Positions 2,612 to 23,381 of a DNA stretch of 64,000 bases are shown piece by piece. The notes beneath the pieces were generated by a model. That model did no database searches. It had not been told where the DNA came from and saw only the letters and a program-made list of their open reading frames with translations. Position numbers and translations under genes: made by a program. Source of the stretch: Escherichia phage vB_EcoM_JN03. Each line of letters starts with the position of its first letter. Position 1 is the first letter of the stretch. Location: the sequence record OR885871; one strand, given 5' to 3'.

Positions 2612-4525
2612 ATGATTTCTCAATTCAATCAACCACGCGGCTCCACTTCCATAGAAGTTAACAAACAATCTATCGCTCGAAATTTCGGTGTCAAAGAAGA
2701 CGAAGTCATTTATTTCACTGTCGGTATTGATCTCAGCGGATTTAAAGTAATTTATGATGAGTCTACCCAACGGGCTTATTCTCTTCCTTCGGGTATTGTT
2801 TCAGGAACGATTGCGATAAGTCTGAACGAACAAGCCATCCTTACTCATTCTTCTGGCTCTGTTGACCTTGGGGAATTAGCAGTAAGCCGCGAAGAATATG
2901 TGACTTTACCTGGTTCTTTTAATTTCGGTCATACCATTAATGTGAAAAATGAACTTCTTGTTCACGATGATAAAAAATATCGATGGGATGGTTCTTTGCC
3001 AAAGGCAGTTGCCGCTGGTTCTACACCCGATAACTCAGGCGGTGTTGGTTTAGGTGCATGGTTGAGTGTTGGTGATGTATCATTGAGAGCGGATTTGGCT
3101 AGTGGCACACTTGGTAAAGGTGCGAATCTTTTGACATATAAGTCACAAGTATCAAACTCGGTTGCTATAAGCCAACAAATTAAAAATAGTGAAAGGGTTT
3201 CTGTTTTTGAGTATTTGGCTAAGCCTATTCCTGGTTTTGATAATGCATCAGCATTCGCTGCTATGAAAGCTGATGCTGAAGCAGGTGTTGTAATAACAGT
3301 ACCTTCAGGAGTATATGAAACATCTGAACCACTGAGATTCACAAAACCTGTTCAAATATGGTTTGATGTAGGAGTGCGAATAAAACTTACATCTGGTGCA
3401 CATGACCATGTTGTGGAAATAGATTTACGTGGACAAGATGAGGGGTATTGGGGGTATAAACCTTTCTTTGGTGGTGGCAGGGTTATTCTTGATGGTCTTG
3501 GTCATGCTAAGTACGGGCTATCACTTCGTGGCGTAATATCTGGTGGTTTTCCTGGTATTCAAGCAACCAATATAACAACTGCTGGGTTATATCTGGCTTG
3601 GACTCAATGCTGTACATACACTGATTTTATTTGCTCTAATAACGTGGAGGTTTTCACAACAAAACCCCTGCACGGTATTTTAGTAGATAAAGATAACAAT
3701 CCGTCAAATCCACGTGGTACATCATGCGATATCTTTATTAACCCATGTGTAGAGCACACTGCGGGTGATGGGTTTGTAGGACTAAGCCTGATGAACTCAA
3801 TGGTTATAAACGGAACAATCGAGGGAAACCTTGGCGCAGGCATTTCATTGGGGCATCCTACAGATAATACTTACACTGCACTGGGTAATACATTTCTTGG
3901 TATTGACCTTGAGGTGAACACGCTAACTGATATTGTGATTAACAAGTTTTCACACATGAACGAGTTCATAGGACTCAAATCAGGTTATTCATCTCCATCA
4001 GTTCAGGTCAGAGGTTTTCGTAACTATTTCTCTGGAGGTACTGTTAGCGATTTCGACTTCAGGCCAGATAGCCATGACAACCACGTACAGGATGTAACAC
4101 TTTTAGCTGAGTTTCCTGTTGTTAATGATGAAGGGATAAGAAACACTTATGAAAGATTATGGAATCTTAACAATGCTCAAGTTAACGTAAGCACAAACCC
4201 TGTTAACACAAGAAGCAATCAGCCTATAGCGGGAGGTGAGACAGTAACGTTAGACCCATATAAAGCATCCTATGTTGTATGCACCGCAACAGGAACACCT
4301 ATTAATATAGTTTCTGCCACCAAAAAATTAGATGGAGCAAGAATAGATTTGACAATTCACAATGCATCAGGAACAGATTCATTAGTCATTAACTGGGCAT
4401 CAGATATTAGAGTTGGCAATTTTACTCCTCCACCAGCAGGTAAACATAAGGGGTTATCACTAAGATATGATGCTAATTACGGTTATTGGACTGTAGTTGG
4501 TGTTGGACTGGACGCTTTATCGTGA
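2612..4525 (+). CDS. Tailspike / receptor-binding protein TSP-B (637 aa)
   Basis: N-terminus carries the conserved module shared with the other three genes (GVKEDEVIYF, SGFKVIYD, GSVDLGELAVSREEYVTL, NVKNELLVH, YRWDG, GSTPDNSGGVGLGAWLSVG); divergent C-terminal domain. Confidence 0.75.
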   Translation: MISQFNQPRGSTSIEVNKQSIARNFGVKEDEVIYFTVGIDLSGFKVIYDESTQRAYSLPSGIVSGTIAISLNEQAILTHSSGSVDLGELAVSREEYVTLPGSFNFGHTINVKNELLVHDDKKYRWDGSLPKAVAAGSTPDNSGGVGLGAWLSVGDVSLRADLASGTLGKGANLLTYKSQVSNSVAISQQIKNSERVSVFEYLAKPIPGFDNASAFAAMKADAEAGVVITVPSGVYETSEPLRFTKPVQIWFDVGVRIKLTSGAHDHVVEIDLRGQDEGYWGYKPFFGGGRVILDGLGHAKYGLSLRGVISGGFPGIQATNITTAGLYLAWTQCCTYTDFICSNNVEVFTTKPLHGILVDKDNNPSNPRGTSCDIFINPCVEHTAGDGFVGLSLMNSMVINGTIEGNLGAGISLGHPTDNTYTALGNTFLGIDLEVNTLTDIVINKFSHMNEFIGLKSGYSSPSVQVRGFRNYFSGGTVSDFDFRPDSHDNHVQDVTLLAEFPVVNDEGIRNTYERLWNLNNAQVNVSTNPVNTRSNQPIAGGETVTLDPYKASYVVCTATGTPINIVSATKKLDGARIDLTIHNASGTDSLVINWASDIRVGNFTPPPAGKHKGLSLRYDANYGYWTVVGVGLDALS

Positions 4526-17478: not shown

Positions 17479-18161
17479 TCATGAGCAATATGTCAGAAAG
17501 GTTACTCGCCACACTTGATGCGGTGACTGCCCGAGACGAAGTTGGGAAGGAGGCAATGGAGGCTGTCGCCCCTCGTCCAGGTATTGACTTCGATGAAAAT
17601 ACAGGTGAATGGTTTGGTGAACGTCCGGAAGGGTATCAGCCGATTCCTGAACCGCCTTCATTGGAGGATATTGCTTCCAAGGAATCCAAAGTACCTGAGT
17701 TTGCGGACACTGATGCTACAACGGATTACAAACGGATACGCGACACAACATATGCCATGCAAGAAGCCACAATGTTCATGATGGGACAAGCCGCTAAATT
17801 GGCTGCATCCACAGAAGCTCCGCGAGCATTTTCTGTTTTCCGTGAATTGGGTGAACTCATGCGAGGTCTGAATAAAGACTTGATGGAAAACCAGAAAACC
17901 ATCAAGGCAGTAACAGGTGATAAAGAACCACCTGTTGATGACACGACAGTGGATGTTACAACTTCACCAGACGGAACAACAACAGTATCGGTTGGGAAAA
18001 AGGCGCGATCTTCTCGCGATTTATTGAAGACGATCGAAGATGCACGCCGCCGCGCTGAAGAAAGAGCACAAGCAAAGGCCGCACAACAACCAGAAGATGA
18101 AATCATTGATGGTGAAACAGTTGATGTGAAGGAAGAAGACGATGGCGTATCAGAAGCGTGA
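17475..18161 (+). CDS. gp16: Terminase small subunit gp16 homolog
   Basis: Immediately upstream of and overlapping the large terminase. Segment EAPRAFSVFRELGELMRGLNKDLMENQKTIK resembles T4 gp16; acidic C-terminus. Confidence 0.65.
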   Translation: MIMSNMSERLLATLDAVTARDEVGKEAMEAVAPRPGIDFDENTGEWFGERPEGYQPIPEPPSLEDIASKESKVPEFADTDATTDYKRIRDTTYAMQEATMFMMGQAAKLAASTEAPRAFSVFRELGELMRGLNKDLMENQKTIKAVTGDKEPPVDDTTVDVTTSPDGTTTVSVGKKARSSRDLLKTIEDARRRAEERAQAKAAQQPEDEIIDGETVDVKEEDDGVSEA

Positions 18162-20352
18162 TATAGAATATGCCCCAATTAAAACGGGGTTCAAAATAGA
18201 CGATGTGAAATTGCGTATGGACCAAACGTTCATGCGCAAACCTTCTGTGCGTGCTCCTCGAGTCGAGTTAATGCTGACAGATGAACAAGAAGACGAATTC
18301 GTTGAATGTTCTATGGATGCACACTACTTCGCCGCCAACTATTACAAGATAACCACGATCGATAAGGGCTTTATCCTTTTCGATATGCATGATTATCAGA
18401 AGCAGTTGTTCCACGACTTTCAGGACTATCGATTCAATGCGGTCGTCCAGGCTCGTCAGTCCGGTAAATGCGTCCGTGGTGATACTCTTGTTTATGTCTA
18501 TGATACAATCAGTCAACAAGAGTTGCATCTCACCATAGAAGAGCTTCACAAGCGCTTCGAAGGACCGAACCATGCTGTGCCACTGAATACCATTGGCAAC
18601 CACAATAAGTTTGTAGACAGCCGTTTCGGGAAACGATATTTTGTTGAGTCCGACACTGGCTGGGTTCCGGTTATTGCCGCTCATAAAACGAAAGAATACG
18701 CTGAATACGTTGTCAGGACTGAAACCGGACGCACAATTCATGTCGCAGATGAGCACATGTTCTTCAATGAATATGGGCGCGAAGTATTTGCTAAAGACAT
18801 GGAGGCCGGAGATGCCATAATGACCCAGGAGGGAATAGAATTCATCTCTGAGATCTGGGAGACTGGTGAGTACCACCACATGTATGACTTGCAAGTCAAG
18901 TCCAGCGATCAACGTTATTACACGAATGGGTTCCTCAGCCATAATACCACGGTCGTGGCTGCGTTTCTTCTTTGGTATGCGATGTTCCACTCAGACAAAG
19001 AAATCGCGGTACTGGCAAACAAAGAGAAACAAGCGATTGAAATTCTTGACCGTATCAGGAAGGCGTATCAGGACCTCCCATTCTTCCTTCAGCAGGGTTG
19101 TGAGAAGTTTGGTTCTACCCTGATAGAGTTTGAGAATGGTTCTAAGATATACGCTTATGCCACGTCTTCGGACTCCATCCGTGGTCGTTCTGTATCGCTC
19201 TTGTACGTTGACGAAGTCGCGTTTATCGAAAACGACTTTGAATTTTGGGAATCAACTTTCCCAGCCATTGCATCTGCCGATACATCACGCTGTATTTTGA
19301 CAAGTACTCCGAAAGGCCAGCGAGGGTTGTTCTATGATATTGTCACCAAAGCAGATCCGCGCCATCCACAATACAACGACTTCCACCTAACTGAAGTCCC
19401 ATGGTATAAGGTTCCGGCATATACCAAAGATCCAGATTGGGAAACCAAACAACGTGCCCGTCTGGGGGATGCTCGTTTCGATCAAGAATTTGGCATTAAG
19501 TTCCGTGGTTCCGTGGGTTCATTGATTCCGGCCAAATGCTTAGATAAAATGACGTCCAAGTTATATCGGGAACCTAATGAATTCACCAAGATTTATAAGG
19601 AATACGACCCACAACGTCTCTACTTTGGGATTGCGGACACTGGGAAGGGGGTGGAAGGAGATTATTCCGTCTTAACAATTCTGGATATAACTGAATATCC
19701 GCATGTTATAGCAGCCAAGTACAGGAATAACACGATACCTCCTATGATGTATGCATACACGATAGCTGATATGTGCACCGAATACGGGGAATGCCCTGTC
19801 CTTGTTGAAACAAACAACGACGTCGGCGGTCAGGTTATTACAATTCTTTATCAAGAGATAGAATATCCAGAAATCATATTCACATCAACAGATAACAAAG
19901 GGACGGGGAAACGGATTGGTGGACGTAAACCGGAACCTGGTATCAATACCAACAGAAAAGTCCGATCTATCGGTTGTGCTAACCTGAAAGCGCTCATTGA
20001 GAAAGAAATGTTGGTGATAGAAGACCAGGACACGATAGATGAACTCAGTACATTTGTGTTCAAAGGCGCTCGGTATGAAGCCGATGACGGTTGTCACGAT
20101 GACTGTGTCATGCCGTTGGTCTTATATTCTTGGGCAGTTAAACAAGAATGGTTCAGTGATTTGACATCTACAAGTATTTCTCAGGACATGAGAAACCGAA
20201 TGTCTTCAACTGAATCTCAGCAGGTATTCCCATTTGGTGGTTTAGTCGTTGGAGACACCCCATCCGAAACTGAGCATTTGCCTGGTTTCGGGGGTATTCA
20301 AGTTTTCAACGAAATGTCAGGGATGACCATGGATGAGTGGTTTAAGAATTGA
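18142..20352 (+). CDS. gp17: Terminase large subunit gp17 homolog, interrupted by a mini-intein
   Basis: Extein sequence QARQSGK/TTVVAAFLLWYAMFHSDKEIAVLANKEKQ matches the T4 gp17 Walker A region (SRQLGKTTVVAIFLAHF...). Downstream blocks (LLYVDEVAFI, TSTPKG) fit the ATPase/nuclease. 736 aa in total, 577 aa after excision. Confidence 0.9.
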   Translation: MAYQKRDIEYAPIKTGFKIDDVKLRMDQTFMRKPSVRAPRVELMLTDEQEDEFVECSMDAHYFAANYYKITTIDKGFILFDMHDYQKQLFHDFQDYRFNAVVQARQSGKCVRGDTLVYVYDTISQQELHLTIEELHKRFEGPNHAVPLNTIGNHNKFVDSRFGKRYFVESDTGWVPVIAAHKTKEYAEYVVRTETGRTIHVADEHMFFNEYGREVFAKDMEAGDAIMTQEGIEFISEIWETGEYHHMYDLQVKSSDQRYYTNGFLSHNTTVVAAFLLWYAMFHSDKEIAVLANKEKQAIEILDRIRKAYQDLPFFLQQGCEKFGSTLIEFENGSKIYAYATSSDSIRGRSVSLLYVDEVAFIENDFEFWESTFPAIASADTSRCILTSTPKGQRGLFYDIVTKADPRHPQYNDFHLTEVPWYKVPAYTKDPDWETKQRARLGDARFDQEFGIKFRGSVGSLIPAKCLDKMTSKLYREPNEFTKIYKEYDPQRLYFGIADTGKGVEGDYSVLTILDITEYPHVIAAKYRNNTIPPMMYAYTIADMCTEYGECPVLVETNNDVGGQVITILYQEIEYPEIIFTSTDNKGTGKRIGGRKPEPGINTNRKVRSIGCANLKALIEKEMLVIEDQDTIDELSTFVFKGARYEADDGCHDDCVMPLVLYSWAVKQEWFSDLTSTSISQDMRNRMSSTESQQVFPFGGLVVGDTPSETEHLPGFGGIQVFNEMSGMTMDEWFKN
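18469..18945 (+). other. Mini-intein (159 aa) within the terminase large subunit P-loop
   Basis: Begins with Cys (CVRGDTLV, block A-like), ends with ...NGFLSHN followed by a Thr +1 residue. Removing it restores the canonical GKT Walker A. Too short for an endonuclease domain. Confidence 0.8.
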
Positions 20353-20363: not shown

Positions 20364-20404
20364 CTTTCAAATTGAGCGAAACTCTACCGAGAAGGAATGA
20401 TATT

Positions 20405-22300
20405 ATGGCAACTCAAAGCTTCAGCGTTGCGCCGTCCGTTCAGTGGACTGAGCGTGATGCCACGCTTCAGACGTCCCCGTCCGTTGTTGTTCAGGGCGCG
20501 ACCGTCGGAAAATTTCAATGGGGTGAAGTTGAACTTCCAGTGCTGGTGACTGGTGGTGAGACAGGTTTGGTGAAGAAATTCTTCAAACCCAACGACAGTA
20601 CTGCGACCGATTTTCTCGTAATCGCGGACTTTTTGTCTTACAGCTCTATGGCATGGGTGACCCGTGTTGTTGGTCCTCTGGCCAAGAACTCTGTTACCAA
20701 AGGTCAGACAGCGATTGCGATCAAAAACAAACTGGATTTTGAAACAGCAAGTCCTTCGGCGTCCATCACTTGGACTGGTCGTTATCCAGGTTCCCTGGGT
20801 AATGATATTGCTATCAATGTTTGTGATGCTGCTGGATTCTCAACTTGGGAATTCCGTAATAACTTTGCATACGCACCTCAGTCTGGTGAATTCCATGTAG
20901 TTGTCGTAGACAAAGTTGGTCGCATTACCGACTCTGCTGGCGCGGTCGGTCAGGTTGACCGTATCTCCGTTTCTGGTACGGCTACTGCTGCTGGCACCAT
21001 CAGTGTGGCAGGTGAAGATATCGCATATCTGGATACTGATACTCCAGCCGATTTGGCAACCAAAATCGGTACAGCACTAACTTCCCTGACAAGTGTTTAT
21101 TCTTCTGTTGTCGTGAAGTCCAACACTGTCATCGTGACCCATAAAGCTATTGGTCCCCAGACAGTTACTGCTATTGTTCCAGATGATAAGGGGCTGACTG
21201 CAACCGCCGTGATTACCACTGTTGGCGCATCTGGTTCTATTATCGAAAAATACGAACTCATGCAGAACACACAGGGTTCCAAAAAGTCCGATGGCGCGAA
21301 TGCGTACTTCAAAGATGTCATCAATGATACATCAAATTGGGTGTACACCTTCGCTACCGCTCTGGCAGCAGGTGTTGTTGAATTAGAAGGCGGCGTAGAC
21401 GATTATAACATCAACCGCGTGGCAGCTATCCAAGTCTTGAACAATGCTGAAGCATATGATGCGAAGCCAGTATTTGCGTACTGTGAAGAACTGATTGAGC
21501 AACAAGCATTGATCGACTTATCTACTGAGCGAAAAGATACGGTATCTTTCGTATCCCCGCTCCGTGATACGGTTGTTGGCAACCGTGGTCGTGAAATGGA
21601 TGATGTCGTTGCTTGGCGTGAAAGCCTTGTTCGCGACTCTTCTTATTTCTTCATGGATGATAACTGGGCATATGTGTACGACAAGTACAACGACAAAATG
21701 CGTTGGATTCCGGCTTGTGGTGGCACCGCAGGTGTTTGGGCGCGAAGCATTGAAATCGCGGGTATCTACAAATCTCCGGCGTTCCACAACCGTGGTAAAT
21801 ACAACAACTATAATCGAATGGCGTGGTCTGCTTCTTCTGATGAACGTGCTGTGTTGTACCGCAATCAGATCAACAGCATCGTAACCTTCTCCAATGAAGG
21901 CATCGTCCTGTATGGTGACAAAACTGGCCTGACCCGCCCGTCGGCGTTTGACCGCATCAACGTTCGTGGTCTGTTCATCATGGCTGAGCAGAACATCGCC
22001 GCAATCGCCAAATACTATCTTGGTGAGAACAATGACGCGTTTACACGTGGTCTGTTCAGCAATGCGGTTCGTCCATATATCCGCCAGCTGGCAAATATGG
22101 GCGCGATTTACGATGGTAAAGTCAAATGTGATGAAGACAACAACACTGCTGATGTCATTGCGGCAAACCAAATGGTTGCAGGCATTTGGTTGAAGCCTGA
22201 GTACAGCATTAATTGGGTCTACTTAGATTTTGCTGCAGTTCGACCAGATATGGAGTTCAGCGAAATCGAATCCGGTGGCGGCATCGTTGCTGCTTCATAA
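20405..22300 (+). CDS. gp18: Tail sheath protein gp18 homolog
   Basis: Start set at MATQSF (RBS gaagga). GATVGKFQWGEVE aligns with T4 gp18 AGKFQWGPAF; size ~630 aa. Confidence 0.85.
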   Translation: MATQSFSVAPSVQWTERDATLQTSPSVVVQGATVGKFQWGEVELPVLVTGGETGLVKKFFKPNDSTATDFLVIADFLSYSSMAWVTRVVGPLAKNSVTKGQTAIAIKNKLDFETASPSASITWTGRYPGSLGNDIAINVCDAAGFSTWEFRNNFAYAPQSGEFHVVVVDKVGRITDSAGAVGQVDRISVSGTATAAGTISVAGEDIAYLDTDTPADLATKIGTALTSLTSVYSSVVVKSNTVIVTHKAIGPQTVTAIVPDDKGLTATAVITTVGASGSIIEKYELMQNTQGSKKSDGANAYFKDVINDTSNWVYTFATALAAGVVELEGGVDDYNINRVAAIQVLNNAEAYDAKPVFAYCEELIEQQALIDLSTERKDTVSFVSPLRDTVVGNRGREMDDVVAWRESLVRDSSYFFMDDNWAYVYDKYNDKMRWIPACGGTAGVWARSIEIAGIYKSPAFHNRGKYNNYNRMAWSASSDERAVLYRNQINSIVTFSNEGIVLYGDKTGLTRPSAFDRINVRGLFIMAEQNIAAIAKYYLGENNDAFTRGLFSNAVRPYIRQLANMGAIYDGKVKCDEDNNTADVIAANQMVAGIWLKPEYSINWVYLDFAAVRPDMEFSEIESGGGIVAAS

Positions 22301-22308
22301 AAATGACC

Positions 22309-22336
22309 AACCCCGCTTCGGCGGGGTTTTCCTTTG
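22309..22336 (+). terminator. Rho-independent terminator (aaccccgcttcggcggggtt + U-tract)
   Basis: Hairpin plus T-run after the sheath stop. Confidence 0.7.
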
Positions 22337-22358
22337 TCTTATTGATTTGAGTTATTGA

Positions 22359-22817
22359 ATGATATACGCATACAAAATTGAAACGATAACTAATGGAAAG
22401 GTCTACATCGGTGTGACCAATGACCCACAACGAAGATATGATCAGCATTTTGCGAATGCTTTTCATCATGGAGTCCAAAGTGAATTGTATGATGCCATGC
22501 GTAAGTATGGAACATCTGGATTTACTTTCGTTGTAATTGCTCAGACCGATGAAGTCCATAAATGGGAATTAGAGAAGCAACTCATCGCTCAATATAATTC
22601 TTATGAGATGGGTTACAACATGAATAAAGGCGGTAATGATGGAAGTCATATGCTGGGTAAAACTGCAGCAAAATTGACATCCACAGGTGAACACATTGGT
22701 CTTGTTTCTCTCATAGATCCCCGTTGGGAATTGTGTGAAATCGAACCCGTTTTAAGCAATGTTGACCACGGATTTGATTTTTCTTCCATGAAGATTAAAA
22801 GATTGACGACTAATTAG
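22359..22817 (+). CDS. GIY-YIG homing endonuclease (free-standing, short form)
   Basis: IYAYKIE...GKVYIGVT (GIY/YIG), RRYDQH (conserved Arg), YNMNKGGNDGSH (conserved Asn region). Inserted between the sheath and tube genes. Confidence 0.8.
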   Translation: MIYAYKIETITNGKVYIGVTNDPQRRYDQHFANAFHHGVQSELYDAMRKYGTSGFTFVVIAQTDEVHKWELEKQLIAQYNSYEMGYNMNKGGNDGSHMLGKTAAKLTSTGEHIGLVSLIDPRWELCEIEPVLSNVDHGFDFSSMKIKRLTTN

Positions 22818-22847
22818 AATTGTGTACTCTTATTTGGAGATATAAAA

Positions 22848-23381
22848 ATGGCGACAGTCAATGAGTTTCGCGCAGCCATGTCACGAGGGGGCGGCGTACA
22901 ACGCCAACACCGCTGGCGTGTGACTGTAAACTTTCCTTCTTTTGTTGCTGGTTCCGACACAATTCGTGACGTGTCCTTGCTGGCTGTAACCACCAACACC
23001 CCAACAGGTCAGCTGGGCGAAATTCTGGTGCCCTGGGGTGGTCGTGAACTTCCGTTCCCAGGGGATCGTCGTTTCGAAGCGCTTCCTGTGACGTTCATTA
23101 ACGTGGTGAACAACGCTCCATACAATGCTTTTGAAGTGTGGCAGCAATTCATCAACGGTAGTGAAAACAACCGCGCCAGCGCGAATCCAGATGATTATTT
23201 CCGTGATATCATCATGGAACTTCTGGACGCGAATGACAACGTGACTAAGACATGGACTTTACAGGGCGGCTGGCCTCAAAACCTCGGCCAACTGGAACTC
23301 GATATGTCGGCAATGGACTCTTACACACAGTTCACTGTCGACTTGCGTTATTTCCAAGCCGTTTCTGACAAGTCATTGTAA
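22848..23381 (+). CDS. gp19: Tail tube protein gp19 homolog
   Basis: C-terminus TWTLQGGWPQNLGQLELDMSAMDSYTQFTVDLRYFQAV aligns with T4 gp19 KGLWPTNVGELQLDWDSNNEIQTFEVTLALDYWE. Confidence 0.8.
   Translation: MATVNEFRAAMSRGGGVQRQHRWRVTVNFPSFVAGSDTIRDVSLLAVTTNTPTGQLGEILVPWGGRELPFPGDRRFEALPVTFINVVNNAPYNAFEVWQQFINGSENNRASANPDDYFRDIIMELLDANDNVTKTWTLQGGWPQNLGQLELDMSAMDSYTQFTVDLRYFQAVSDKSL

What the first reader, a model, noticed from the sequence alone, without database searches (positions are those of the whole stretch)
22359..22817. Free-standing GIY-YIG homing endonuclease inserted between tail sheath and tail tube genes
A short ORF with canonical GIY ... YIG, Arg and Asn motifs sits in the gp18-gp19 intergenic space, behind its own terminator. 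In T4-like phages such endonucleases are mobile and mark regions of localised recombination. At 152 aa it may lack a DNA-binding domain and could be decaying or acting on a nearby target.
Basis: partly seen in the sequence, partly recalled or inferred. Interest (0 to 1): 0.5.

Follow-up and report, generated by a model that had tools for sequence, protein, structure and literature searches.

The report
Shortened resident GIY-YIG homing endonuclease gene
A small nuclease gene of the selfish 'homing endonuclease' type sits between the tail sheath and tail tube genes of this ViI-like (Kuttervirus) phage. It is already annotated in about 200 related phage genome records, and it is a shortened form kept intact by selection, neither a fresh insertion nor a decaying relic.

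Summary
The ORF at 22359-22817 (+, 152 aa) is real and is a GIY-YIG nuclease (Pfam E=2.5e-11; PHROG 5123 full length, E=5e-94; model matches the I-TevI catalytic domain, rmsd ~2 A). The window is 99.6% identical to Escherichia phage CBA120, where this gene (orf195) was called a putative homing endonuclease in 2011. The gene is therefore already known. What is added here: the sheath-tube junction is a homing-endonuclease hot spot in Ackermannviridae. Nine states were seen, from empty to tandem, replaced, frameshifted or reduced to a remnant. The last ~150 nt of the sheath gene form a mosaic of mostly synonymous variants beside it. The 152-aa form lacks the ~75-100-aa C-terminal domain of the 230-243-aa paralogues found at the same site. 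It keeps every catalytic residue and one copy of a ~34-aa 'DPRW' repeat, which occurs 2-7 times per protein in metagenomic nucleases and has no Pfam or NCBIfam model. The gene is under strong purifying selection (dN/dS ~0.1), and its dS equals that of its flanks between genera. It holds this position in at least three genera plus a more distant metagenomic lineage. The 'decaying' reading is rejected. The terminator belongs to the sheath gene. Biochemical activity and target remain untested.

The parts
20405..22300 (+). Tail sheath gene (gp18-like). The ORF listing starts it at a TTG at 20372; annotated homologues use the ATG at 20405.
   Evidence: PHROG 23 E=2.6e-113 and Pfam sheath domains. 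Annotated as tail sheath in CBA120 and more than 200 records.
22140..22300 (+). Highly variable 3' end of the sheath gene. It is a mosaic of mostly synonymous variants shared in patches across genera. Read here as a co-conversion or recombination tract beside the endonuclease slot.
   Evidence: Genome pairs 99-100% identical at -900..-300 drop to 80-91% in the last 200 nt whenever their junction state differs. The encoded protein hardly changes.
22309..22338 (+). Intrinsic terminator of the sheath gene: an 8-bp G+C-rich stem, a TTCG loop and a T run.
   Evidence: Terminator scan. The hairpin is present directly after the sheath stop codon in empty junctions too.
22359..22817 (+). Short-form GIY-YIG endonuclease gene, 152 aa (CBA120 orf195 family, PHROG 5123).
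   Evidence: It is 100% identical at protein level to CBA120 orf195 and 17 other listed records.
22359..22643 (+). Catalytic GIY-YIG domain, residues 1-95 (Y5, Y16, R26, H30, E72, N87).
   Evidence: AlphaFold2 pLDDT above 92. Foldseek match to I-TevI 1mk0/1ln0, target-normalised TM 0.82-0.84, rmsd 1.8-2.0 A. Residues invariant in 109 sequences. dN/dS 0.08-0.12.
22656..22754 (+). Single copy of the ~34-aa 'DPRW' repeat module, residues 100-132. It follows a flexible hinge (residues 95-99).
   Evidence: An HMM built only from multi-repeat metagenomic proteins hits residues 100-124 with a domain E of 6e-11. pLDDT about 85, predicted as a beta-hairpin, a short helix and a strand. 18 of 33 positions are invariant among short forms. 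dN/dS 0.04-0.06.
22755..22814 (+). Tail, residues 133-152: weakly conserved and predicted with low confidence. It has no convincing counterpart in the full-length paralogues.
   Evidence: pLDDT 45-59. 3 of 20 positions invariant. dN/dS 0.15-0.5. DNA alignment.
22809..22816 (+). ACTAATTA, a late-promoter-like element of the tube gene. The ORF's stop codon (TAG, 22815-22817) lies partly inside it. It forms the right-hand boundary of the insertion slot.
   Evidence: The motif ACTAAWTA has 10 hits against 3.9 expected. All nine + strand hits lie in intergenic DNA 28-50 nt upstream of an ATG; for eight of them that ATG opens an ORF of at least 80 aa. The flanking sequence CTAATTAGAATTG is conserved at the empty junctions of Gloob and, with one change, EspM4VN.
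22848..23381 (+). Tail tube gene (gp19-like), with a GGAG ribosome-binding site at 22836-22839.
   Evidence: PHROG 45 E=6e-57. Sequence read.

Best explanation
The ORF is a resident, C-terminally shortened member of a lineage of free-standing GIY-YIG homing endonucleases. That lineage occupies one slot in Ackermannviridae genomes: the ~15-nt gap between the sheath gene's terminator and the tube gene's late-promoter-like element.

Shown:
- The protein has an I-TevI-like catalytic domain with all catalytic residues, a flexible hinge, one copy of a ~34-aa DPRW repeat and a short low-confidence tail.
- It lacks the ~75-100-aa C-terminal domain of the 230-243-aa paralogues that fill the same slot in other phages.
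- It has been inherited with its flanking genes since before Kuttervirus and Taipeivirus separated, and it is under strong purifying selection.
- The slot is repeatedly invaded by other endonuclease genes.
- The adjacent end of the sheath gene carries a mosaic of mostly synonymous variants, as expected from repeated break repair.

Inferred:
- The protein is still an active endonuclease, made in small amounts by read-through of the sheath terminator late in infection.
- It acts in mixed infections on the corresponding region of related phages that carry an empty or rival allele. Its own sheath-tube alleles are then copied into the broken genome (homing or marker exclusion).
- That recurrent competition, rather than invasion of naive genomes, keeps it under selection.
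- With one repeat module and no C-terminal domain, its recognition is probably looser than that of the full-length forms.
For: Identity and fold.

Same-slot paralogues and domain loss:
- Menlow 230 aa is 57% identical over residues 4-132. KE27, XF4 and KpS110 proteins are 42-43% identical.
- Alignments.

Slot anatomy.

Junction states seen:
- Empty: Gloob, EspM4VN, Bue1, Vibrio 207E48.1.
- Short form only.
- Full-length only.
- Full-length plus short in tandem.
- Reverse-strand 262-aa gene plus short.
- Reverse-strand gene alone.
- Frameshifted reverse-strand gene.
- Hef-like gene plus a 39-codon remnant.

Selection and vertical descent:
- dN/dS 0.08-0.12; dS 1.2-1.4 against 1.3-1.6 in the flanks.
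- By segment, with Fisher tests.
- Short forms 54-60% identical sit at the same junction.
- Divergence order matches that of the sheath and tube proteins.
- 205 phage records carry it; all matches shown cover 99-100% in one piece.

Recombination tract.

Repeat module.
Against: - No cleavage activity, target or expression has been measured for this protein or any close relative. The CBA120 paper only names it by homology (PMC3184105).
- No empty site was seen in the sampled members of the genera that carry the short form. Classic homing therefore has no naive target there.
- dS equal to the flanks argues against recent movement between genera.
- The isolated I-TevI catalytic domain is reported not to bind DNA usefully on its own (my recollection of Derbyshire et al. 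1997, not checked here).
- Residues 96-152 have a net charge near -1 (my count from the sequence), so DNA binding by the remaining part is not evident.
- The short form's module has lost the conserved K-T-G of the repeat consensus (WELCEIE against WKTGEI).
- No promoter-like element precedes the ORF.
- The divergent tracts track changes of junction state that involve the full-length genes. They do not demonstrably track the short form.
Confidence: 0.5

Rival explanations
1. Domesticated nuclease. The shortened protein no longer serves its own spread. The phage keeps it for another job that needs a small, loosely specific GIY-YIG nuclease. Examples would be nicking or degrading host or competitor DNA that lacks the phage's modified thymidine (as T4 endonuclease II does with cytosine DNA), or making breaks that start recombination-dependent replication.
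For: - Long vertical retention with dN/dS ~0.1, although no empty target sites were seen in its own genera.
- Loss of the specificity-conferring C-terminal domain, and no separately encoded copy of it.
- ViI-like phages replace thymidine with a modified base (PMC3184105), so self and non-self DNA could be told apart.
- T4 endonuclease II is a 136-aa GIY-YIG enzyme without a separate DNA-binding domain (established knowledge, not tested here).
Against: - It is dispensable in nature. Kuttervirus isolates KE27, Se-H, UTK0004 and pertopsoe lack it, as do the sampled Agtrevirus, Limestonevirus, Nezavisimistyvirus and Vibrio-infecting members.
- The closest fold is the I-TevI homing domain. T4 endonuclease II is not among the 50 listed structural matches.
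- Its nearest relatives are full-length homing-type genes in the same slot.
- It sits behind a terminator with no promoter-like element, which is a poor position for a gene needed in quantity.
Confidence: 0.25
2. Classic, currently mobile homing endonuclease. The gene spreads by cutting insert-free sheath-tube junctions and being copied in, and its distribution reflects recent horizontal moves.
For: - Absent from some relatives and present in others.
- Within Kuttervirus the ORF can be more alike than its flanks. Phage 241 against vB_SenM-2: ORF 99.8%, sheath 91%, tube 93%.
- G+C is 38%, against 48-51% in the flanks.
Against: - Between genera the ORF's dS equals that of the flanks, and its divergence follows the order of the sheath and tube proteins.
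- It holds the same position in lineages only 54-60% identical.
- No closely related pair with 'short form against empty' was found. The only clean presence/absence pair within one genus (ChubbyThor and Gloob) involves a full-length gene.
- High-identity islands also occur elsewhere in the compared region, so the one over the ORF is not special.
Confidence: 0.15
3. Inactive relic. The ORF is a deletion derivative on its way to being lost, and it stays open only by chance or by hitch-hiking between two essential genes.
For: - It lacks the C-terminal domain.
- Relics do arise at this locus: a 39-codon remnant in LIMEstone1 and at least 10 other Dickeya phages, and a frameshifted reverse-strand gene in UTK0004.
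Against: - pN/pS is 0.16-0.18 over the whole gene, with Fisher p of 1e-14 to 1e-23. The constraint is strongest on the catalytic domain and the repeat module.
- Catalytic residues are invariant at 54% identity.
- No truncated or frameshifted copy appeared among the matches shown.
Confidence: 0.05
4. One half of a split enzyme. The missing DNA-binding domain is encoded elsewhere in the genome and joins the catalytic fragment in trans.
For: None found. Considered because the full-length forms are modular.
Against: - tblastn of the full-length proteins against the 64-kb window hits only residues 4-141 of the ORF.
- tblastn of the C-terminal 81 aa against 50,697 phage records finds 90 records. CBA120 is not among the 60 listed. 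The organism totals (35 Salmonella and 8 Escherichia phage records) are far below the number of records that carry the short form.
Confidence: 0.03

Closest known systems
Full-length GIY-YIG endonuclease genes at the same sheath-tube slot: Klebsiella phage Menlow gp185 (230 aa); 'F-LimII'-type genes of Dickeya phage XF4, Salmonella phage KE27 and Klebsiella phage KpS110 (231-243 aa)
   Same: Same slot, same strand, same catalytic domain and the same single DPRW module. Identity is 57% (Menlow) or 42-43% (the others) over residues 4-132 up to 5-141. All catalytic residues are shared.
   Different: They carry a further ~75-100 aa (a weak NUMOD3-like match, then a conserved '...KRFKLISP.GEE...RLNTTGW' domain with weak helix-turn-helix matches) that the 152-aa form lacks. 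Their distribution is patchy. They come with divergent flanking tracts, and some are frameshifted or reduced to remnants. The short form is stable.
I-TevI (phage T4 td intron endonuclease), the structural prototype of GIY-YIG homing endonucleases
   Same: The catalytic domain superposes at rmsd 1.8-2.0 A over 92-94 residues. Y, Y, R, H, E and N are all in register. A flexible segment follows the catalytic domain.
   Different: I-TevI is intron-encoded and 245 aa long, with a zinc finger, a minor-groove helix and a helix-turn-helix domain (established knowledge). This protein is free-standing and 152 aa long. It has one DPRW repeat instead. Sequence identity is about 25%.
T4 SegD (the name used in the CBA120 annotation) and T4 SegE
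   Same: Free-standing GIY-YIG genes placed between structural genes of a T4-like genome.
   Different: Only superfamily-level similarity: SegD 28% over 69 aa (pairwise E=5e-4), SegE 26% over 110 aa (E=1e-6). The R26/H30 segment falls in alignment gaps in both. They lie at different loci; T4 has nothing between genes 18 and 19. This gene is not an orthologue of segD.
I-HmuI / I-HmuII of Bacillus phages SPO1 and SP82 ('beyond homing', Goodrich-Blair and Shub 1996, cited in PMC3296691)
   Same: A conceptual parallel for the proposed mechanism. Resident endonucleases that cut the rival phage's allele and so favour their own flanking markers can stay under selection without naive targets.
   Different: Those are HNH-type, intron-encoded nicking enzymes with measured activity. 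Nothing has been measured here.
T4 endonuclease II (DenA)
   Same: A small GIY-YIG nuclease (136 aa) without a separate DNA-binding domain, kept for the phage's benefit (established knowledge).
   Different: Not among the 50 listed structural matches or the profile matches. It sits at a different locus, and no homing-type relatives neighbour it.

Membership tests
GIY-YIG nuclease superfamily | GIY-YIG alpha/beta catalytic fold with conserved Tyr, Tyr, Arg, (His), Glu and Asn | tested here: met
   Pfam PF01541 scores 44.1 bits against a cut-off of 22.6. The model matches I-TevI 1mk0/1ln0 with target-normalised TM 0.82-0.84. Y5, Y16, R26, H30, E72 and N87 are invariant in 109 sequences.
Free-standing phage GIY-YIG homing endonucleases (Seg / F-Lim type) | Own ORF in an intergenic slot between conserved genes, present in some related genomes and absent from others | tested here: met
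   It lies between the sheath and tube genes. Empty junctions were found in Agtrevirus, Nezavisimistyvirus and a Vibrio phage. Other genes occupy the slot elsewhere. No close pair of 'short form against empty' was found.
Free-standing phage GIY-YIG homing endonucleases (Seg / F-Lim type) | C-terminal sequence-specific DNA-binding domain joined to the catalytic domain by a linker | tested here: not met
   The ~75-100-aa C-terminal domain of the same-slot paralogues is missing and is not encoded elsewhere. Only one ~34-aa DPRW repeat remains, and its DNA binding is inferred, not shown.
Free-standing phage GIY-YIG homing endonucleases (Seg / F-Lim type) | Cleaves the endonuclease-free allele near the insertion site | not testable with these tools
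   Needs purified protein and junction substrates.
Free-standing phage GIY-YIG homing endonucleases (Seg / F-Lim type) | Co-conversion of flanking markers, seen as localised recombination tracts beside the gene | tested here: inconclusive
   A clear mosaic tract lies in the last ~150-200 nt of the sheath gene. It accompanies changes involving the full-length genes and cannot be assigned to the short form.
Free-standing phage GIY-YIG homing endonucleases (Seg / F-Lim type) | Signs of horizontal movement (gene history differs from that of its flanks) | tested here: not met
   dS equals the flanks between genera. The order of divergence matches the sheath and tube proteins.
T4 SegD orthologues (the name given in the CBA120 record) | Full-length similarity to T4 SegD and an equivalent locus | tested here: not met
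   28% identity over 69 aa only. segD lies between genes 23 and 24 in T4, and the T4 18-19 junction holds no gene.
PHROG 5123 / CBA120 orf195 family (short form) | About 151-156 aa, full-length match, position between sheath and tube | tested here: met
   phrog_5123 matches 1-152 of 152 at E=4.9e-94. The protein is 100% identical to CBA120 orf195. Distant members sit at the same junction.

The most novel reading that the evidence does not exclude
The 152-aa form is not a leftover. It is a stabilised minimal nuclease (a catalytic domain plus one DPRW repeat) kept for a long time at an endonuclease battleground, either as a competitor against rival alleles or for a co-opted phage function. Separately, the ~34-aa repeat 'G.xAAxxxxTGExLGxVxxxDPRWxTGEI' is a nuclease-associated modular repeat that has no entry in Pfam or NCBIfam. 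It occurs 1-7 times behind GIY-YIG, SegE-like and unclassified N-terminal domains and may be a DNA-recognition unit of the 'beads on a string' kind.
Probability: 0.3. Interest if true: 0.55.

Novelty: already known. Interest (0 to 1): 0.3.

Why it matters
The gene itself is a routine, already annotated feature of ViI-like phages, so the finding as written adds nothing new.

The locus is still a compact natural record of the life cycle of homing endonuclease genes. Empty, invaded, doubly occupied, frameshifted and almost erased states all occur at one 15-nt slot. The break-repair scars are visible as mostly synonymous mosaicism in an essential gene.

The short form departs from the expected 'invade, fix, decay' course because it is held by selection. 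That makes it a convenient test case for whether resident endonucleases persist through competition between alleles or through co-option.

Two by-products may be useful:
- A candidate late-promoter element (ACTAAWTA). The CBA120 paper of 2011 said none had been identified for this phage group.
- A repeat module with no Pfam or NCBIfam model, which could matter for understanding or engineering nuclease targeting.

Tried and rejected
- A hairpin predicted to bury the ORF's start codon is not conserved: RNAalifold on five lineages gave no pairs. Rejected as a regulatory element.
- The pattern CTAAWTAGA occurs only once in the window. The shorter ACTAAWTA is the recurring element.
- Split-enzyme idea: no separately encoded C-terminal domain was found in the window or, as far as the listing shows, in short-form genomes.
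- SegD orthology: rejected.
- The first AlphaFold2 run, with 9 sequences, gave pLDDT 59 and was not used. The 109-sequence run gave 85.
- Pfam and NCBIfam scans of the multi-repeat proteins found no model for the repeat.
- Literature searches for 'NUMOD2' and for 'DPRW' with 'endonuclease' found nothing relevant. The repeated zinc-finger modules described in PMC10448857 are a different domain.
- tblastn of a five-repeat segment against cultured phages found only 3 records, so the multi-repeat proteins are mainly metagenomic.
- A search for Kuttervirus transcriptome papers found nothing useful.
- No second copy of the gene or its relatives occurs in the 64-kb window.
- Linkage of one sheath-end haplotype to each endonuclease type was looked for and not found. 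Every lineage has its own mosaic.
Full report
**What is there.** The window holds an ATG ORF at 22359-22817 on the + strand, encoding 152 aa. It lies between the tail sheath gene (ending at 22300) and the tail tube gene (starting at 22848). The terminase large subunit is upstream and the portal gene downstream. The protein passes Pfam's GIY-YIG model (E=2.5e-11, 44.1 bits against a cut-off of 22.6). It matches PHROG 5123, 'homing endonuclease with GIY-YIG motif', over all 152 positions (E=4.9e-94). Alignment to I-TevI puts Y5, Y16, R26, H30 and N87 in register with I-TevI Y6, Y17, R27, H31 and N90. These residues and E72 are invariant in a 109-sequence alignment. The first motif reads 'YAY', not a literal 'GIY'. 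An AlphaFold2 model built on that alignment has mean pLDDT 85. Its best solved-structure matches are the I-TevI catalytic domain entries 1mk0 and 1ln0 (target-normalised TM 0.82-0.84, rmsd 1.8-2.0 A).

**Where the window comes from, and whether the gene is known.** The sheath-to-tube stretch is 99.6% identical to Escherichia phage CBA120 and 98-99% identical to many Salmonella Kuttervirus phages. The protein is 100% identical to CBA120 orf195, annotated 'putative homing endonuclease SegD', and to the product in 17 other listed records. The CBA120 paper lists orf195 as one of two putative homing endonucleases, 'a homolog of T4 segD' (PMC3184105). The gene is already annotated. I found no measurement of its activity in the two papers read for this phage group. 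The SegD label is only superfamily-deep: 28% identity over 69 residues, at a different locus in T4.

**Anatomy of the slot.** A hairpin with a TTCG loop and a T run lies at 22309-22328, just after the sheath stop codon. The same element follows the sheath gene in relatives whose sheath and tube genes are only about 78 nt apart: Shigella phage Gloob, Enterobacter phage EspM4VN and Erwinia phage Bue1. It therefore belongs to the sheath gene and is not the ORF's 'own' terminator.

On the other side, the ORF's stop codon lies partly inside the sequence ACTAATTA (22809-22816). The motif ACTAAWTA occurs 10 times in the window against 3.9 expected. All nine + strand copies lie in intergenic DNA 28-50 nt upstream of an ATG. 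For eight of them that ATG opens an ORF of at least 80 aa, including the sheath, tube and portal genes. It resembles the T4 late promoter TATAAATA, and LIMEstone1's authors annotated a CTAAAT of this kind as a putative late promoter. I read it as the tube gene's late promoter.

The endonuclease genes therefore sit between a terminator and a promoter. The flanking sequence CTAATTAGAATTG is also present at the empty junctions of Gloob and, with one change, EspM4VN. No promoter-like element precedes the ORF. A hairpin predicted around its start codon is not conserved.

**A hot spot with many states.** Across Ackermannviridae the junction is found in these states:
- Empty: Agtrevirus Gloob and EspM4VN, Nezavisimistyvirus Bue1, Vibrio phage 207E48.1.
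- Short form only: most Kuttervirus; Taipeivirus PWKp5 and IME250; Miltonvirus KSP90 (partial record).
- A 230-243-aa same-strand GIY-YIG gene only: Menlow, KE27, pertopsoe, RPN242, XF4 and the Agtrevirus ChubbyThor.
- That full-length gene followed in tandem by the short form: KpS110, rabagast and a metagenomic contig.
- A 262-aa GIY-YIG gene on the opposite strand plus the short form: vB_SenM-2, EP75.
- The opposite-strand gene alone: Se-H.
- The opposite-strand gene broken by a frameshift: UTK0004.
- A 596-aa Hef-like gene (F-LimVIII) plus a 39-codon remnant of a Menlow-type gene: LIMEstone1 and at least ten other Dickeya phages (PMC3296691).

**Recombination beside the slot.** Genome pairs that are 99-100% identical 300-900 nt upstream of the sheath stop codon fall to 80-91% identity in the last 200 nt whenever their junction states differ. 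Examples are window against KE27 or Se-H, vB_SenM-2 against rabagast, PWKp5 against KpS110, ChubbyThor against Gloob, and XF4 against LIMEstone1. The first 120 nt of the tube gene usually stay 98-100% identical in these pairs; XF4 against LIMEstone1 (80%) is the exception. The differences are nearly all at third codon positions. The last 37 residues of the sheath protein hardly change. The variants are shared in short patches across genera. This is what repeated break repair from varied templates would leave. However, each documented change of state involves a full-length gene, so the tract cannot be credited to the short form. No single haplotype travels with each endonuclease type.

**What the short form is.** It aligns with the same-slot full-length proteins from residue 4 to about 132: 57% identity to Menlow and 42-43% to the KE27, XF4 and KpS110 type. 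After 'EIEPV' it lacks about 240 nt. In the full-length genes that stretch encodes a weak NUMOD3-like segment and a conserved C-terminal domain with weak helix-turn-helix matches. The short form ends with its own 20-residue tail, which is predicted with low confidence. That C-terminal domain is not encoded anywhere else in the window. tblastn finds it in only 90 phage records. CBA120 is not among the 60 listed, and the totals by host are far below the number of records that carry the short form.

It is not bare, however. Residues 100-132 are one copy of a ~34-aa repeat with consensus G.xAAxxxxTGExLGxVxxxDPRWxTGEI. This repeat occurs 2-7 times per protein in metagenomic proteins. Their N-terminal domains give weak GIY-YIG or SegE-like matches, or none at all; one (P0019) has histidine motifs that to my eye recall an HNH domain. 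An HMM built only from proteins with four or more repeats finds the window protein at residues 100-124, with a domain E of 6e-11 in a set of about 170 sequences. No Pfam or NCBIfam model covers the repeat, and I found no description of it. The model shows it as a beta-hairpin, a short helix and a strand behind a flexible hinge (pLDDT about 85). That it binds DNA is my inference from its tandem, modular use. Against that inference, residues 96-152 are not basic (my count from the sequence), and the short form has lost the K-T-G of the consensus.

**Selection and history.** Between Kuttervirus and Taipeivirus copies, dN/dS is 0.08-0.11. It is 0.12-0.13 between the two Taipeivirus lineages compared (PWKp5 or KpS110 against IME250). 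The sheath gene gives 0.04 and the tube gene 0.02. Neutrality is rejected with Fisher p of 1e-14 to 1e-23. Constraint is strongest on the repeat module (0.04-0.06) and the catalytic domain (0.08-0.12), and weaker on the tail (0.15-0.5). The ORF's dS (1.2-1.4) equals that of its flanks (1.3-1.6), so it has travelled with them since those genera split. Copies 54-60% identical sit at the same junction in more distant lineages. The order of divergence follows that of the sheath and tube proteins.

At 50% clustering the whole short family is a single representative among 1.8 billion proteins, and its nearest neighbour is the 230-aa Menlow type. 205 phage records carry it at 60% identity or more. 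Every such match shown covers 99-100% of the protein in one piece. 'Decaying' is rejected, and so is recent insertion. Agtrevirus and Limestonevirus are about as close to Kuttervirus as Taipeivirus is, yet they lack the short form. Either it was lost cleanly there, or it was gained more than once long ago. I cannot tell which.

**How it most likely works.** Shown: an intact I-TevI-like active site, one constrained repeat module, long residence under purifying selection, and a locus where endonuclease genes keep arriving and leaving recombination scars. Inferred: the protein is still a nuclease, made at low level by read-through of the sheath terminator. It persists because it cuts the corresponding region of co-infecting relatives with empty or rival alleles, which favours its own flanking alleles. 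This resembles the competition described for I-HmuI and I-HmuII. I give this reading about 0.5.

The main rival is co-option for a non-homing job such as attacking unmodified DNA (about 0.25). Long retention without naive targets fits it, but the gene's natural dispensability and its position count against it. Classic ongoing homing (about 0.15) fits the between-genus data poorly. An inactive relic (about 0.05) is contradicted by the selection analysis. A split enzyme (about 0.03) found no support.

**Verdict.** This is a real, correctly recognised GIY-YIG endonuclease gene, and an already annotated one. Interest is modest (0.3). It rests on three things: the short form's departure from the usual invade-and-decay course, the repeat module with no Pfam or NCBIfam model, and the clear picture of an endonuclease hot spot.

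Noticed in passing
window 18469-18945 (within the terminase large subunit gene, 18142-20352): The terminase large subunit carries a 159-aa mini-intein inserted in the Walker A loop (..ARQSGK|CVRGD...FLSHN|TTVV..). The Pfam Intein_splicing match is below its cut-off (27.3 against 35.8 bits). The Erwinia phage Bue1 terminase gene is about 156 codons shorter. Relatives in Agtrevirus, Taipeivirus and two metagenomic contigs have the long form.
   Followed up: partly
window 2571, 4629, 9589, 16105, 20355, 22809, 23416, 25138, 26356 (+ strand): The motif ACTAAWTA has 10 hits against 3.9 expected. All nine + strand copies lie in intergenic DNA 28-50 nt upstream of an ATG; for eight of them that ATG opens an ORF of at least 80 aa. 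It is a candidate late-promoter element. The CBA120 paper of 2011 says none had been identified for ViI-like phages.
   Followed up: partly
window 22656-22754; proteins P0012, P0016, P0019, P0023, P0028, P0032, P0055, P0104: A ~34-aa repeat (G.xAAxxxxTGExLGxVxxxDPRWxTGEI) occurs 1-7 times per protein in metagenomic nuclease-like proteins with differing N-terminal domains. No Pfam or NCBIfam model covers it. Only 3 cultured-phage records matched a five-repeat query.
   Followed up: partly
window ~22140-22300; the same region in L001-L023: The last ~150-200 nt of the sheath gene form a mosaic of mostly synonymous variants shared in short patches across genera, while the protein hardly changes. 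The tube-gene side is far less variable.
   Followed up: yes
L006 5070-5190 (Dickeya phage LIMEstone1): An unannotated 39-codon remnant (MITNSHIDSGPIPEVGIYQRKRATDLRLKTTGWQLIRIV*) of a Menlow-type endonuclease gene lies between F-LimVIII and the tube gene, preceded by a second copy of the terminator hairpin. At least ten other Dickeya phage records share it.
   Followed up: partly
L019 2129-2922 (Salmonella phage UTK0004), minus strand: The reverse-strand 262-aa-type GIY-YIG gene is annotated as two overlapping ORFs. This suggests a frameshift, either a real pseudogene or a sequencing error.
   Followed up: no
L002 ~2177-2250 (Enterobacter phage EspM4VN): The tube gene appears frameshifted near its start: one G fewer in a G run than in relatives. 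The record's annotation therefore starts it 72 nt downstream. A sequencing error is likely.
   Followed up: no
window 22359-22817 compared with its flanks: The ORF has 38.3% G+C, against 48.3% (sheath), 51.3% (tube) and 44.1% (whole window), despite its apparently long residence.
   Followed up: no
L009 2859-2862, L022 3240-3243, L017 ~3999-4001: In tandem arrangements the full-length gene ends at the short form's start codon. KpS110 and rabagast show a 4-nt ATGA overlap, and in L017 the two genes abut. When the full-length gene is alone it ends in the late-promoter-like element. The right-hand boundary of the incoming cassette therefore differs between the two situations.
   Followed up: no
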